A stretch of DNA of 54,263 nt, filler included, from Bipalium vagum (lineage: Eukaryota), in the NCBI GenBank assembly GCA_037834085.1. It is 3 parts of 3 records of this genome, joined end to end, with 100 filler letters (N's around TTAATTAATTAA, not from the genome) between each part and the next. Parts side by side here need not be neighbours in the genome. Positions count along the whole stretch, not along the records: positions 20,997 to 36,590 come from JBBMKC010157568.1; 2 more parts are not named here. One strand, 5' to 3'. Position 1 is the first letter of the stretch; each line of letters opens with the position of its first letter. A program made the position numbers and the translations under genes. Shown in pieces: positions 28,507-35,525 of the stretch. Below the pieces are notes generated by a model. It made no database searches. It worked only from the letters and a program-made list of their open reading frames with translations, and was not told where the DNA came from.

Positions 28507-31500
28507 ATGCAAATGGAAGATAAATATAAGAATAATTTCGAATTCTTTAAATCTTATATTACAGCGTGTTTACAAGAAAAAGATATTAATGATATCCTGA
28601 GAGATTTTGATAATATTTTTGAAAATAAAGGTATTATTTATTATTTTATGTATGGAAATAAATTTTTCTTAGATATAAATATTATAATGGCAACTGAAAC
28701 ATGTGAAAAAAGTAGAAAATTTATAAAAATTTTTGAATATTGCAATGATAATCAAAAATATTTAAAATTAAAAAATTGGGCTTCGGGTAATAATTTATAA
28801 AATTAAATTTAAAAATACATCATTAATAATCCAGAACACAATAAGTGGATATATTCGTTTCTAACGATAAATTTAACAAGTGCAAAACAAGAATTAATAG
28901 GAAAATGGATTGCATTTCAGAACACCCAAAATTTTCTTAACATACACAGGAAATCTCTTGGCATTAATAATGGTTTTATAAATGAACTATATAGTAAAGA
29001 TTTATTGTCAAAGGGTTCAAGGGACATTTTAAAGCATAAATATGAAAGTGGAGGAATGAATTTGTGTAAGTATTGATTCTTATAAATGTATAGATGACTC
29101 ATTTGAATAATCATATTGAAGAAATTTAGTTAGTAATAATAATAGTAATCGTTAAAATAAAAATATAATTAAAAAATTAAGGTTTCTCTGATATTTTTAA
29201 TGTTCTGTCTACAAGCGACCCAGATTGGTACGGACATTTTCTGTATATATTATGCAAACAAGATTCAAATTACCAAAATATTTTCTACAAGGATTTAGGT
29301 AATATTGATTTTAGAATTCAAAAATTGATAAGTTAAAAATATTCAGGTATCAATGATTATATGAGTGAAGAGGTCAAAGAAAAATTATGTTTGGAGTATG
29401 CCAAAAGGTTTCTTAATGATCATGTAAAAGGTGTGGTAAATTAAATTGAAATTATTTTTTAATCGATAAATATTATTGATTAATTTTAACATACCTTCAA
29501 GCTTATTGCTGTAAATGATATTACTTGGTTTTAAAAAATTTTGTTTTAGATCTGGGTTTCAATAATATCAAGGCTTATATTTTAAAATTTTGATTTTAAT
29601 TAATTTTTTGGTCTTCAGAATATACAGCAGCTTGATAAATTTCATAATGGTTTTGAACATTCGAATAATATATGTTCATAATATGAGAATTTTTATTTTA
29701 CAATCAAGTAATATTGTAAATTATAATAAGATAAAATTTCATAAAATATAGATTCAAATGAAAAAAATTCAAAATAAATACAAAATCTTGCGTGATATTT
29801 CAATTTTTTATTCCGATTTTTTGCGAAAAATGAATTTAGATATGGTAAACCCTTAAATGTTTATATGGTGACAGTTACACAATAAAGGTTATCTTTGTTC
29901 TTAGTTGCCTTCATTCTTTAATGATCATTTTTATAAATTAATGAAATTATTTATTTAAAAAGTGAACCTTTAGCAGGTATTCTTTTATTATGAATATTAC
30001 CGTAGTATTTCATTTACTATGACAATTGATTCTCTTCTCTTGTAATTTCATGAATCAATTCGTTTTTTTTGTCTTATCAGGTTAATTTATTTAAAAGTAT
30101 CTTTCAAGTTTTTAAAAAAAATTTCTTTCTTATCCTGTACTATTATGTCTGTTAACTTTTCAACAAAGTCGCGAGTCAACAAACTCGACCGATGGGTTCT
30201 TCACCGATTTATTCCTGCAAACAAAATGGTTAAGTTCAGTATACGCTCAAATCTTCTACAACGCCACATGCAGAAACCTTTTTGGAAAAGGATCATTATT
30301 TGTGATGAAAAGTGGGTTTCATAAAGGAATCATGCATGTCGACTATCTTCCACATCTTCAACCAATAAAAGTAGATATACACTGTGCTGAAATTGATAAA
30401 GTTCAAACCAAATTTTAGGAAATCGAAAAGGCATTATCTTACTATATGATAAAAAAAACCGCATACTTAAAAATAACTCAAGAAAAATTTCTCAATTAGG
30501 GTGGAAACTTTTATCTCACTCGCAATATAATTCGGATATTAATCCAACTGACTATCATCTTTTTTGACTGTTTAATTTTTTGTCCAGTAAGAAATACTAT
30601 TGCGTAGTTGATGATCAAAATGACCTCTCAATCTCTTTTTTGACCTGAGTTTTATGAGCGTGGTATTTTCTCGCCTATAGATAGTTTGAGAAAAGTTGTT
30701 AAGTCATTTGATTATATTGTTTAATTTGTTTATTATTGAATAAATTATTATTTGAAACTTCTGGGGGAAAACAACACTCAGTATTCCGTTACCTAAAACT
30801 TGAATCAACTTTATATAGGTACTTAAATATTTAATTTCTTTTTGTTATTCAAATAAAATATCTAGATTTCAAATATTTTTTTATAAAATCCTTTGATAGA
30901 TTGTATTTCAAAATGAAATCTCTTGATTTCACAAAGGTTTTACACAACCATTCATGGATTATATTTCAATAAAAGAAAGCGTTAAGAACAATCCTCCTCA
31001 TCAAATAACATTAACAACAGCGATTTCTCTTCAATACTAAATCCATTATCTTTCATTTTATAATTTATAATTTTCATTTTCATAATAGAAACAATAATAT
31101 ATTAATTATATCTTTTCTTATCTAATCAATGCCTATTGTTCAAAAATAAACAATATCAATATTGAAAAACCATATCATAAAAAACCATTTATCATAATTT
31201 TTTGTAATTACTGACTTAGATGTTCATATTGAATAGGCTTTGTTTCTTGAAGAAATGATTCTTCATGACATACTTTGTCAATTAGAATGTCAAAAAATAT
31301 TATTAGAATATCTTGAAGTTAAGATAATTATATTTTTATAATATTTGCTAATTCATTTTTATCATTATGTCCAATAACAGGATCATTCTACTTTTAGATT
31401 ATCAAAAGGAAGCTTTTATAAAAAATTATGAAGCAAATTTTACAGGTTTGACACCTTTCAATTGATATTTTATTTCTTTTTATGGATCTCTTCAAATGTT

Positions 31501-32563: not shown

Positions 32564-35525
32564 GATTATTGAAACTATACACATTAGAACTGATAAGTGA
32601 AAAAGTTATTTAAATAAAAAAAGTTCTTGTTCAGATTTTTAGATTTTTGAAGTTTTCAATGTTACATATTTAAAAAAATATAAATAAAGGGTTAGTCAAA
32701 AACCATTTTAAAAAATATATTTGTTTTTCGCAAAGTTATAATAATTATTATGAAGTAGAATTTCTGAAAATTAAAAAACATAGAACACCGCAATGTTGTT
32801 ACTTGCGGTAAGGATAACCATTTAGTTTTTTATTTTCGATTCTGTTATGGTTTAGTTTGAAGGCCCTAAAATTATCGTTGAATCATTAATAATGGAGGGG
32901 TTTAATTTTTTTCATAAAGTATATTTCAAAGAAAGATTGATTAATCGATAAGCATGAAATTTATTTTTAACAAAATTTTATTGAAGGTCATTCAAACATA
33001 TAAGAATTGTCAAAGGATATTTCTAATGCCTCCTTTATTTTCTCTATTGACACATTTCCATAGGCGTCCATGCTAGAAAATCATAACTTTCACGAAAGCC
33101 ATTACTAATTGACTTATCAAGATAGGCATAAAATACTTCAATAATTTAAGAATAGAATATTTTGGATTATTATACTGAGGTCAAGAGGTTTAAAATGACA
33201 ACATTTGATCAATCTCATGTTTATTAATAAGTAAAAAATTCAAAGAAATATTCTGTTAAATTAGCAATCAACGTTCAATCAATTTTTAAATTAAAAAAGT
33301 ATAAAATTAATTATTAATCCAAGTTCTTTACTATTATCCTGATATCTACTAATCAATCTACCAAATTCTAAATTCATTTGCGAATTATGTTGGTAGATGA
33401 GAATTTTTTATGTATTATTAGTCGAAATAAGGTAAGGTCAGAAGGAACGAAATCTATATGAAAAGTATAATAGAATGATAGACCTTTTCAGCACAACTGA
33501 GTAAACTTTGTAGCATGTAGATGAGCGTTTTCCTGAGAAGAATGACTTTGATTTCTTTTCTTTTTAACTTATCACTTTTCATAAACTGTTATTAAAAAAA
33601 TTCATTTTTGCACAATATTTTTTCAGTATTAATTGAAAAAAATTTATGAAGATTTGAAAAGTGTTTCCTTCCTCTCAGCATTATTTTTATTGTTCCAATA
33701 CAAAAAGTTCCATCCAATAAATGAGGGGACTCATATCAGCTGCGACTATCAATATTTTGTTAATATCCAATACAGTTTCTTTTGAAATTAAATTTTACTT
33801 AACATTTTATTCTTGAGCAGAACAACGATGTTAACAAAAATTTTCAATTATTTGTTTCAGAGAGATCAGCACACTCATCTTTGGCAGTAGAATAATGAGT
33901 TAACAACATAGGGCAATTATATCTCAAAATAGATATTCAATTTTCAGTCATCTCACGAATTCTAATTGTTTGCCATCACAAACCCAAGCATTGCATTTTA
34001 CAACTGTTAAGCTGAATCTACCATCGATCTCTGATAAATATTTTATAACTTTCGATAAGAATTATTCTTAATGTCGAATACAAAAAAGTTTGATCCGTTT
34101 TACTTTTTTAATTTACATAATAATGTAACATTGTTAAATATGCAAAACACCTATAAGAAAAACTTTAGGAAATATAAATTAAATTGGAAATCAAAAATTA
34201 TTGTTAATTCAAAAACCTAAAAGTTCGTTTGGTACTTTCAAAAATTTTATTTTCATTTTATAACTATTGATTTTTCATTAAAAATATTTTTTTCATAGAT
34301 AACGGAAATCTGGCAGATGAAAATTTTGATTTAGATTACTTTGAAGACAATGAATTTTCTCTAGATGGTATGTTAATTTTTTATTTTCTTGGAATTCTTA
34401 CCTCAAAGAATATATATATATATATTATAAAATATTTCTTAAAAATTATTTTATTTTCGATATATTATTGAGTTTTTTTTCAGAAATTAAATATAGTTTG
34501 TTTATTTTCAAATTATTATTGAAAACAAAAAGTAAAATGTTAAAATTATATTTTAACATTAAAACAAAAACATTGTATAAAAAACGGATATTTGTTAATG
34601 ATAGGATTCTGTTTTGAAAGAAATATTGAAATCAACAGTAATTATATTTTGATCTCGTGCTTCATCATTTATATAAATTATAAATTTTAATTTTTTATTA
34701 GTATTATTCTTCCATTTATTTTATATATTATTTTTTTAAACGCTTTTCAATTATTTGTGATAATTTATTTCATGTTTAAAACTGATTATTACGGTTAACA
34801 AATAATGAAATTGATTAAAAAAAATTTTCTTATTATCGAAAATAACGTGTTCTTCTGATTTTTTTACGAAAACCTGATTACTCAGATTTATTGATTTCCA
34901 TGATAGATTTATTCAAAAAATTAAGTTTAGTATTAAAAATATAAACATTTTTTAATATTTACATTGATTATTGTTTTATTTACTTTTTGCAGATTCGTAC
35001 GCTGAGTTAAAATTGATGGATTTTCAAATGGAACTTGTACAGCCAGCTTTACATGGTAAAAATGTAATCATTTATGCTCCTACTGGAGCTGGTAAAACAA
35101 ACATGGCTGTTTATATCGCCAATGTAATTTTTAAAATTTAAATGTTGATTTTTAACTATCATTTTTAATCATTGTATTAAATATAATAAAATAGCAGTAA
35201 TAATTAAAAATAATAATATTAATCATAATAATAAAATAATAATTTCTTAGATAACCTTAATTTAGAAATTGATTTCTTAGGAACATTTAAGGAAAAACCC
35301 TGATGGAAAAGTGGCTTTTTTGGTACACCGTATTCCTTTGGTCTTGCAGCAGTATCGAGTTTTTAAAAAATACAAAACACCGGGCCTTAAAGTAATTGAT
35401 CTTCATGGAAGATCAGACAATATCGCAGGACCCCTTTGTGCTCACTTAGACGATAATGATGTTATAGTCATGACTTCAGAAATATTAAGAAATGCCTTGA
35501 CTATTGACAATGGGAATATGATCAG
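28507..35525 (+). CDS. RIG-I-like receptor (DDX58/IFIH1 family): two CARD-like domains + N-terminal part of a DExD/H helicase; 3' part not recovered
   Basis: Exons 28507-28630, 28673-28786, 28835-29065, 29182-29298, 29347-29430, 34299-34367, 34993-35123 and 35281-35525 join in frame with GT-AG introns. Helicase: [29 protein letters not shown]...[24 protein letters not shown]...[18 protein letters not shown]-like segments: [44 protein letters not shown]. The helicase exons are high confidence; CARD identity and their linkage are moderately high. Confidence 0.82.
30150..30720 (+). mobile_element. Mariner remnant inside the RLR intron
   Basis: [23 protein letters not shown] and [16 protein letters not shown]. 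Confidence 0.75.
31630..32480 (+). mobile_element. Internally deleted Tc1/IS630-like element inside the RLR intron
   Basis: Inverted repeats CATTTTTACGTCAATTTTCAA / [43 protein letters not shown]...[41 protein letters not shown]. Confidence 0.78.
32505..32570. repeat. (TAT)n microsatellite
   Basis: Direct tandem run. Confidence 0.85.
33380..33560 (-). mobile_element. Small mariner catalytic-domain remnant
   Basis: QENAHLHA and [11 protein letters not shown], degenerate forms of HDNARPH and DLAPSDxxLF. Confidence 0.5.

What the first reader, a model, noticed from the sequence alone, without database searches (positions are those of the whole stretch)
28507..35525. Cryptic RIG-I-like receptor with tandem CARD-like domains, fragmented by micro-introns
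Seen: eight exons join in one frame (371 codons) through GT-AG introns of 42, 48, 116, 48, about 4870, 625 and 157 nt; the ORF track shows only two unrelated-looking fragments. Knowledge: the helicase motifs ([45 protein letters not shown]) follow the RIG-I/MDA5/LGP2 pattern, and the RLR family has a patchy distribution in invertebrates. Inference: the roughly 220-aa N-terminus holds two very divergent CARDs ([28 protein letters not shown]), giving a signalling-type antiviral RNA sensor rather than a Dicer helicase.
Basis: partly seen in the sequence, partly recalled or inferred. Interest (0 to 1): 0.7.

Follow-up and report, generated by a model that had tools for sequence, protein, structure and literature searches.

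The report
Flatworm RIG-I with hidden CARD domains
This is an intact flatworm gene for a RIG-I-type helicase, a likely sensor of viral RNA, whose front end likely holds one or two signalling (CARD) domains although its closest relative is described in reviews as having none.

Summary
Eight exons join in one frame (371 codons) through GT-AG introns of 42, 48, 116, 48, 4868, 625 and 157 nt. Nine more exons on three other contigs complete a 946-aa frame with no internal stop, 47% identical to Dugesia japonica RIG-I. It carries DECH, Hel2 and a zinc-binding RIG-I C-terminal domain, then stops, so it is not Dicer. No RNA run was listed, but a decayed processed copy elsewhere in the genome lacks introns 1-3, which shows those splice sites were used. 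The second N-terminal repeat is a CARD on sequence evidence: Pfam CARD_2 passes its cut-off in the Dugesia orthologue, and 0 of 1000 shuffles reach the window protein's score. The first repeat is only suggestive (70 of 1000), and the supporting fold model is partly circular. Short introns are normal in planarians. So this is a new member of a known family. The one point of interest: two reviews call planarian RIG-I CARD-less, and that looks wrong, as it was for nematode DRH-1. No MAVS-like partner was found among four CARD loci.

The parts
28466..28506 (+). likely 5' untranslated leader; the processed copy begins to match here
28507..28630 (+). exon 1 (aa 1-41), start of N-terminal repeat 1 (possible CARD1)
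28631..28672 (+). intron 1, 42 nt, in frame and stop-free, absent from the processed copy
28673..28786 (+). exon 2 (aa 42-79), repeat 1
28787..28834 (+). intron 2, 48 nt, absent from the processed copy
28835..29065 (+). exon 3 (aa 80-156), end of repeat 1 and first half of repeat 2 (CARD2)
29066..29181 (+). intron 3, 116 nt, absent from the processed copy
29182..29298 (+). exon 4 (aa 157-195), second half of CARD2 with the WYGH motif
29347..29430 (+). exon 5 (aa 196-223), predicted extra helix after CARD2
29431..34298 (+). intron 5, 4868 nt; holds transposase-like remnants seen by eye, no Pfam hit at E 0.001
34299..34367 (+). exon 6 (aa 224-246), acidic linker; least supported exon
34993..35123 (+). 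exon 7 (aa 247-290), Q motif and motif I (GAGKT at 35085-35099)
35281..35525 (+). exon 8 (aa 291-371), Hel1 motifs Ia-Ic; intron 8 runs off the contig end at 36590; exons 9-17 lie on G000 contigs C229213, C109243, C26808

Best explanation
This is an intact 17-exon flatworm RIG-I-like helicase gene, 47% identical to Dugesia japonica RIG-I, whose protein likely senses viral double-stranded RNA and likely signals through a divergent N-terminal CARD pair. Shown: the open 946-aa frame, helicase motifs I, II (DECH), III and VI, the C-terminal domain with two CxxC pairs, no PAZ or RNase III before the stop, and splicing of introns 1-3. Well supported: repeat 2 is a CARD. Inferred: repeat 1 is a CARD; helicase and C-terminal domain clamp dsRNA and hydrolyse ATP; this frees the CARDs to oligomerise and nucleate a CARD adaptor that turns on antiviral transcription. 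The basic 5'-triphosphate pocket looks partly lost, so it would read duplex RNA rather than triphosphate ends. The adaptor is unknown.
For: Only database hit of exon 8, 1 of 30 candidates: D. japonica RIG-I, 60% identity, E 2.6e-23. Its remaining two thirds map in order to C229213, C109243, C26808. 17 exons, all 16 introns with GT donor and AG acceptor, one stop at the end, 46.8% identity over 6-934; 57-62% in the helicase lobes, 33-34% in the repeats. Best PDB sequence match of the orthologue is duck RIG-I, E 5e-67, against 6e-33 or weaker for Dicer-type helicases. Quick tree: window gene with Dugesia at SH-aLRT 100, on the RLR side of the branch that separates Dicer/Hef. Dugesia residues 1-232 alone pass Pfam CARD_2 (31.7 bits, cut-off 28.2, residues 117-197). 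A profile of 15 non-flatworm RLR CARDs: repeat 2 reached by 0 of 1000 shuffles in both species; Dugesia repeat 1 by 2 of 1000. A tandem profile aligns across both repeats (window 28-186, 1 of 1000; Dugesia 50-197, 0 of 1000; helical controls 46-501 of 1000). Model of Dugesia 1-232: top 10 Foldseek rows are RIG-I or MDA5 tandem CARDs; VIA Z 9.4 and 9.0 over model residues 7-201 and 9-200. Processed copy without introns 1-3, 94.7% identical, mismatches spread 11/6/9 over codon positions. Precedent: DRH-1 (PMC11260149).
Against: No RNA reads; junctions 4-16, the 4.9-kb intron and three contig gaps rest on homology and frame. Repeat 1 alone is not significant in the window protein (70 and 68 of 1000) nor in Dugesia with the tandem profile (33 of 1000); by hhalign it scores 16.0, below a pincer-helix control at 18.9. 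No window exon hit a CARD family on its own (0 of 5 N-terminal and linker pieces). In the full-length Dugesia protein CARD_2 scores 27.0, just under the cut-off. The fold model is of the Dugesia protein, mean pLDDT 65, residues 24-38 under 50, and 6 of its 9 alignment rows are known CARD segments, so the fold matches are partly circular; no Foldseek row reached E 0.001, TM 0.35-0.37 by query, and Z 8-9 is under the tool's bar of about 13 for helical bundles. The ESM Atlas's own model gave no death-fold row in 10. Flatworm-only searches of PDB sequences found no CARD. Two reviews report that the Dugesia protein signals without CARDs.
Confidence: 0.7

Rival explanations
1. Same receptor, but with one true CARD (repeat 2); repeat 1 is a decayed or unrelated helical spacer.
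For: Repeat 1 fails shuffle tests in the window protein, scores under a control by hhalign, and is the low-confidence part of the model. Single-CARD RLRs occur in molluscs (PMC11103948 passages).
Against: Repeat 1 is as conserved between the two flatworms as repeat 2 (34% against 33%), aligns in register with the first CARD of tunicate and mussel pairs including the last-helix tryptophan, and scores 2 of 1000 in Dugesia. Model residues 10-97 match a designed protein named after an Apaf-1 CARD entry at Z 6.6.
Confidence: 0.18
2. The N-terminus does not signal; the protein works as an RNA-binding ATPase cofactor of Dicer in antiviral RNAi or as an LGP2-like regulator.
For: No MAVS-like locus among 4 CARD matches in this genome. 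Reviews report CARD-independent action in Dugesia. DRH-1 also acts with Dicer (PMC11095941, search listing and start of abstract). RNase III loci exist in the genome.
Against: CARD2 is kept across two flatworms 47% apart. DRH-1, the nearest precedent, does both jobs and its 2CARD alone induces immune genes. The CARD search works exon by exon and scores only the best candidates, so a divergent adaptor could be missed.
Confidence: 0.08
3. The four contigs belong to different paralogues, or the gene is a pseudogene.
For: No read or contig joins the four contigs; a broken copy of exons 1-4 exists.
Against: Each part of the Dugesia protein has one strong locus, in order, without overlap; intron phases agree across all three gaps and there is no internal stop in 946 codons; RIG-I_C-RD matches one locus only.
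Confidence: 0.03
4. It is the helicase end of a Dicer.
For: Shared DExD/H helicase; weaker matches to Dicers.
Against: The frame ends after a RIG-I C-terminal domain; the 4 RNase III matches lie on three other contigs.
Confidence: 0.01

Closest known systems
Dugesia japonica RIG-I (UniRef A0A344X4E4, P0001; taken to be the DjRIG-I of Li et al. 2019, PMID 30355517, from name and species only)
   Same: Same length (946 against 956 aa), same domain order, 47% identity end to end, mutual nearest in the tree.
   Different: Another species; linker about 14 residues shorter. Reviews describe DjRIG-I as CARD-less, whereas its residues 117-197 pass Pfam CARD_2 here. The database's precomputed domains already list PF16739 for it.
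Vertebrate RIG-I (DDX58) and MDA5 (IFIH1)
   Same: 2CARD-like N-terminus, Hel1-Hel2i-Hel2-pincer, zinc-binding C-terminal domain; continuous alignment of Dugesia 276-943 to duck RIG-I.
   Different: N-terminal identity only 10-18% in structural alignments; basic residues of the triphosphate pocket partly replaced; no MAVS-like locus found.
Caenorhabditis elegans DRH-1
   Same: RLR once thought to lack CARDs, later shown by modelling and transgenes to signal through a hidden 2CARD (PMC11260149).
   Different: DRH-1 is tested in vivo and works with Dicer; nothing of the kind is tested here. Its grouping with the flatworm pair in the quick tree (SH-aLRT 89) joins long branches and is not trusted.
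Schmidtea mediterranea PRLR1-3
   Same: Planarian RLRs induced by ADAR knockdown; prlr1 knockdown rescues adar1 lethality (PMC8797187 passages). The first ~120 codons of prlr1 and prlr2, read by eye from the supplement, resemble this N-terminus.
   Different: The paper's main text never mentions CARDs (0 occurrences). Orthology to this gene was not tested; the by-eye reading is a lead only.

Membership tests
RIG-I-like receptors (RLR) | SF2 DExD/H helicase core with motifs I, II (DECH), III, VI | tested here: met
   GAGKT 278, DECH 383, GLTAS 418, QRRGRVR 727; Pfam DEAD, ResIII, Helicase_C on exons
RIG-I-like receptors (RLR) | Helical Hel2i insertion between the lobes | tested here: inconclusive
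   145 residues at 57% identity to Dugesia that align through duck RIG-I Hel2i, but Pfam RIG-I_C (PF18119) is not reported for the Dugesia protein or exon 12
RIG-I-like receptors (RLR) | Zinc-binding C-terminal domain at the end of the chain | tested here: met
   RIG-I_C-RD 27.3 bits on exon 16 (cut-off 25.6) and E 0.0025 on exon 17; CKNC 812 and CNQC 868; stop after residue 946
RIG-I-like receptors (RLR) | dsRNA binding and RNA-stimulated ATPase | not testable with these tools
   poly(I:C) binding is reported for the Dugesia protein second-hand
Signalling (2CARD) RLRs, RIG-I/MDA5 type | Helicase-proximal CARD | tested here: met
   Pfam CARD_2 over cut-off in the orthologue's N-terminus; 0 of 1000 shuffles in both species; 0 of 150 by hhalign, probability 31%
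Signalling (2CARD) RLRs, RIG-I/MDA5 type | First CARD of the tandem pair | tested here: inconclusive
   70, 68, 33 and 2 of 1000 shuffles in four tests; model match partly circular
Signalling (2CARD) RLRs, RIG-I/MDA5 type | MAVS-type adaptor (CARD plus membrane anchor) in the genome | tested here: inconclusive
   4 CARD matches of 6 candidates: Apaf-1-like, caspase, CARD plus unnamed domain, one isolated exon; no membrane helix in the CARD-bearing frames; exon-wise search, lower bound
RIG-I subfamily proper (DDX58) | Basic pocket for 5'-triphosphate RNA | tested here: inconclusive
   Duck FEKKSK aligns with YKNAGK (Dugesia) and YEYGGK (this gene); duck PVIKIK with PFFQLK and PFFQLN, register uncertain. 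Which residues form the pocket is recalled. PMC4795655 section 12 reports all four pocket residues changed in its Dugesia sequence
Dicer | PAZ and two RNase III domains after the helicase | tested here: not met
   frame ends after the RIG-I C-terminal domain; RNase III matches are on other contigs

The most novel reading that the evidence does not exclude
Planarian RIG-I, cited as the example of CARD-independent RLR signalling, carries a hidden tandem CARD conserved across flatworms and signals through it to an adaptor that is not MAVS; one of the CARD genes in this genome, such as the intronless CARD plus unnamed domain on C60687, could be that adaptor.
Probability: 0.35. Interest if true: 0.6.

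Novelty: new member of a known kind. Interest (0 to 1): 0.35.

Why it matters
The gene itself is an ordinary orthologue. Its use is as a second, 47%-identical flatworm sequence that exposes a CARD which two reviews say is absent. If the 2CARD is real, the planarian case of CARD-free RIG-I signalling falls, and the open question becomes which adaptor replaces MAVS in flatworms, the same question left by nematode DRH-1. Planarians have RNAi, a resident dsRNA virus and an RLR-dependent lethal phenotype (PMC8797187), so this is testable now.

Tried and rejected
No RNA holder listed; the one run, X1, is contigs and probably the window's own source, so it is not independent. Its joint at 28785-28834 and its 4 substitutions plus a 4-nt insertion in exon 1 first looked like a broken allele; all match the processed copy on C242834, so that reading was dropped. 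Single-sequence AlphaFold of full-length P0001 was unusable (pLDDT 35), and its Foldseek matches are sequence-driven. Searches for further relatives of the N-terminus returned only P0001 itself (1 of 518 candidates; 1 hit in 1.84 billion), so no deep unbiased alignment could be made. ESM Atlas: feature hits to CARD clusters at 0.81-0.83, a lead only; nothing usable for exons 1-2 read through intron 1. Weak matches of the Dugesia N-terminus to a Vibrio haemolysin family (E 0.0007-0.2) stay under the Pfam cut-off and are taken as chance. Repeat 1 against repeat 2 shows no similarity (E 0.25). The careful tree did not finish; the quick tree has no vertebrate RIG-I or MDA5 and no animal Dicer, so it cannot assign a subfamily. 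No complex prediction was run, since no binding is claimed. Li et al. 2019 is not held. PMC8998645 on lophotrochozoan RLRs has 0 occurrences of six flatworm terms. Paper searches gave no paper, among those listed or read, that reports CARDs in a flatworm RLR; 2 of the 7 listed were read, and subscription journals are not covered. Three look-ups of earlier scan findings returned nothing.
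Full report
Observation. The finding lies in the middle stretch of the pack, 20997-36590, which is the whole of contig C157568. Exons 7 and 8 match Pfam DEAD and ResIII; the five N-terminal and linker pieces match no CARD family alone.

Identity. Exon 8 found one protein among 30 candidates: Dugesia japonica RIG-I, P0001, 956 aa, 60% identity. The joined 371 residues align to it at 39%, N-terminus included. The organism is therefore inferred to be a flatworm, probably a triclad; other animal RLRs are 27-32% identical in the helicase against 59% for Dugesia. 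Searching the genome with P0001 placed the rest of the gene on C229213, C109243 and C26808. The full model has 17 exons, GT donors and AG acceptors throughout, matching phases across the three contig gaps, 946 codons without internal stop and 46.8% identity to P0001. It has GAGKT, DECH, GLTAS, QRRGRVR and two CxxC pairs in the C-terminal domain, which matches RIG-I_C-RD, and then ends. The 4 RNase III matches in the genome are on three other contigs. It is not Dicer. A quick tree of 29 rows joins it to P0001 at SH-aLRT 100 on the RLR side; the set lacked vertebrate RIG-I, MDA5 and animal Dicers, so no subfamily is assigned.

Splicing. No RNA holder was listed. A DNA search found a second copy of exons 1-4 on C242834. 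It starts 41 nt before the ATG, lacks introns 1, 2 and 3, ends inside exon 4, is 94.7% identical to the spliced sequence and carries frameshifts and stops, with mismatches spread evenly over codon positions. This is a processed pseudogene, and it shows that the first three introns were spliced from a transcript, including intron 1, which is in frame and could have been read through. It also explains the joint and variants in run X1. Junctions 4-16 are inferred. Exon 6 is the weakest, ranking 1 of 77 candidates by splice-site score and 2 of 77 by similarity. Short introns are normal here: planarian genes have a peak at 45-85 bp (PMC13594981, passages), and this gene has six introns of 42-48 nt.

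The CARD question. Tests that do not depend on my alignment: Pfam CARD_2 scores 27.0 bits on full P0001, under the 28.2 cut-off, and 31.7 on residues 1-232, over it, matching 117-197 only. Atlas features point to CARD clusters at 0.81-0.83, a lead only, and the Atlas's own model gave no death fold in 10 rows. Flatworm-only searches of PDB sequences found no CARD. With a profile of 15 CARD segments that I cut from six non-flatworm RLRs, repeat 2 was reached by 0 of 1000 shuffles in both species, repeat 1 by 70 (this gene) and 2 (Dugesia) of 1000. A profile of 8 tandem pairs aligned across both repeats (1 and 0 of 1000), but repeat 1 alone gave 68 and 33 of 1000, no better than one helical control at 46. 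hhalign gave repeat 2 probability 31%, 0 of 150 shuffles, and repeat 1 1.7%, 5 of 150, below the pincer control. Both repeats are equally conserved between the two flatworms (34% and 33%). AlphaFold on P0001 alone failed. With a 9-row alignment, 6 rows of which are known CARD segments, P0001 1-232 folded at mean pLDDT 65, highest in repeat 2. The top 10 Foldseek rows are RIG-I or MDA5 tandem CARDs, E 0.004-0.13. VIA gives Z 9.4 to MDA5 CARDs and 8-9 to single CARDs over repeat 2; among Foldseek's candidates the first unrelated row falls to 3.5. These fold results are partly circular and concern the Dugesia protein. My estimate: repeat 2 is a CARD at about 0.9, repeat 1 at about 0.7.

Mechanism. 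By what is established for the family (recalled), the helicase lobes and C-terminal domain would clamp double-stranded RNA and hydrolyse ATP, freeing the CARDs to oligomerise and nucleate an adaptor. In the alignment to duck RIG-I some basic residues of the C-terminal domain are replaced in both flatworms, and PMC4795655 section 12 reports the triphosphate cluster changed in its Dugesia sequence, so duplex sensing is more likely than triphosphate sensing. A CARD search gave 4 matches of 6 candidates: an Apaf-1-like gene, a CARD-caspase, a CARD with an unnamed domain, and one isolated exon; none shows a membrane anchor in its frame. The search is a lower bound.

Literature. Li et al. 2019 on DjRIG-I is not held; I saw its title in reference lists and two second-hand statements that the protein lacks CARDs (PMC6652118 and PMC11103948, passages). 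That P0001 is this protein is inferred from name and species. PMC8797187 (passages and a supplement search) shows three Schmidtea RLRs and never mentions CARDs in its main text; its supplementary figures could not be seen, and figure S7B on domain architecture may bear on this. PMC11260149 (abstract and section 5) is the precedent for hidden CARDs in an invertebrate RLR. PMC13563047 and PMC7958881 (passages) add nothing on domains; PMC8998645 has no flatworm terms. Searches gave no paper, among those listed or read, that reports flatworm RLR CARDs, but the database's automatic annotation already lists CARD_2 for P0001.

Verdict. A real, intact, ordinary orthologue: new member of a known kind. 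The interest lies only in the likely correction of the CARD-less label and the missing adaptor: 0.35.

Noticed in passing
L022:151-684 (G000:C242834): Processed pseudogene of exons 1-4 of this gene. It keeps the 5' end and is cut at the 3' end without a poly(A) tail, the reverse of the usual retrocopy pattern (usual pattern recalled).
   Followed up: yes
L018:4624-5760 (G000:C51803): Second RLR-like helicase with N-terminal C2H2 zinc fingers (zf-met, zf-C2H2_jaz) in place of CARDs; by eye it resembles the S. mediterranea zinc-finger RLR dd_Smed_v6_5587.
   Followed up: partly
L025:1432-2232 (G000:C60687): Intronless 267-aa frame with an N-terminal CARD (38.4 bits) and about 150 C-terminal residues with no Pfam match; a candidate adaptor, untested.
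   Followed up: partly
L027:709-1770, L026:590-1770, L024:1302-1703: An intronless CARD-caspase, an Apaf-1-like CARD-NB-ARC gene, and an isolated CARD exon of unknown gene.
   Followed up: partly
L017:3500-4600 (G000:C46201): Helicase that groups with Hef/ERCC4-type helicases in the tree, probably FANCM (name inferred).
   Followed up: partly
PMC8797187 supplement file 1, rows 18-20: The PRLR labels look shifted: the row named PRLR1 begins like the prlr3 transcript of file 6, and the rows named PRLR2 and PRLR3 look like nematode DRH proteins by eye.
   Followed up: no
window 24970-27826: Broken frames that look by eye like an LTR retrotransposon remnant upstream of the gene; only a weak zinc-knuckle match (E 0.0009).
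   Followed up: no
window 19931-20314 (-), 42186-42797 (-), 48568-48933 (+): Exons with SH3, C-type lectin and GATA zinc-finger matches in the two other stretches of the pack; unrelated to this gene.
   Followed up: no
window 36000-36310: A repeat of about 300 nt in intron 8 with at least 39 other copies at 74-79% identity.
   Followed up: no
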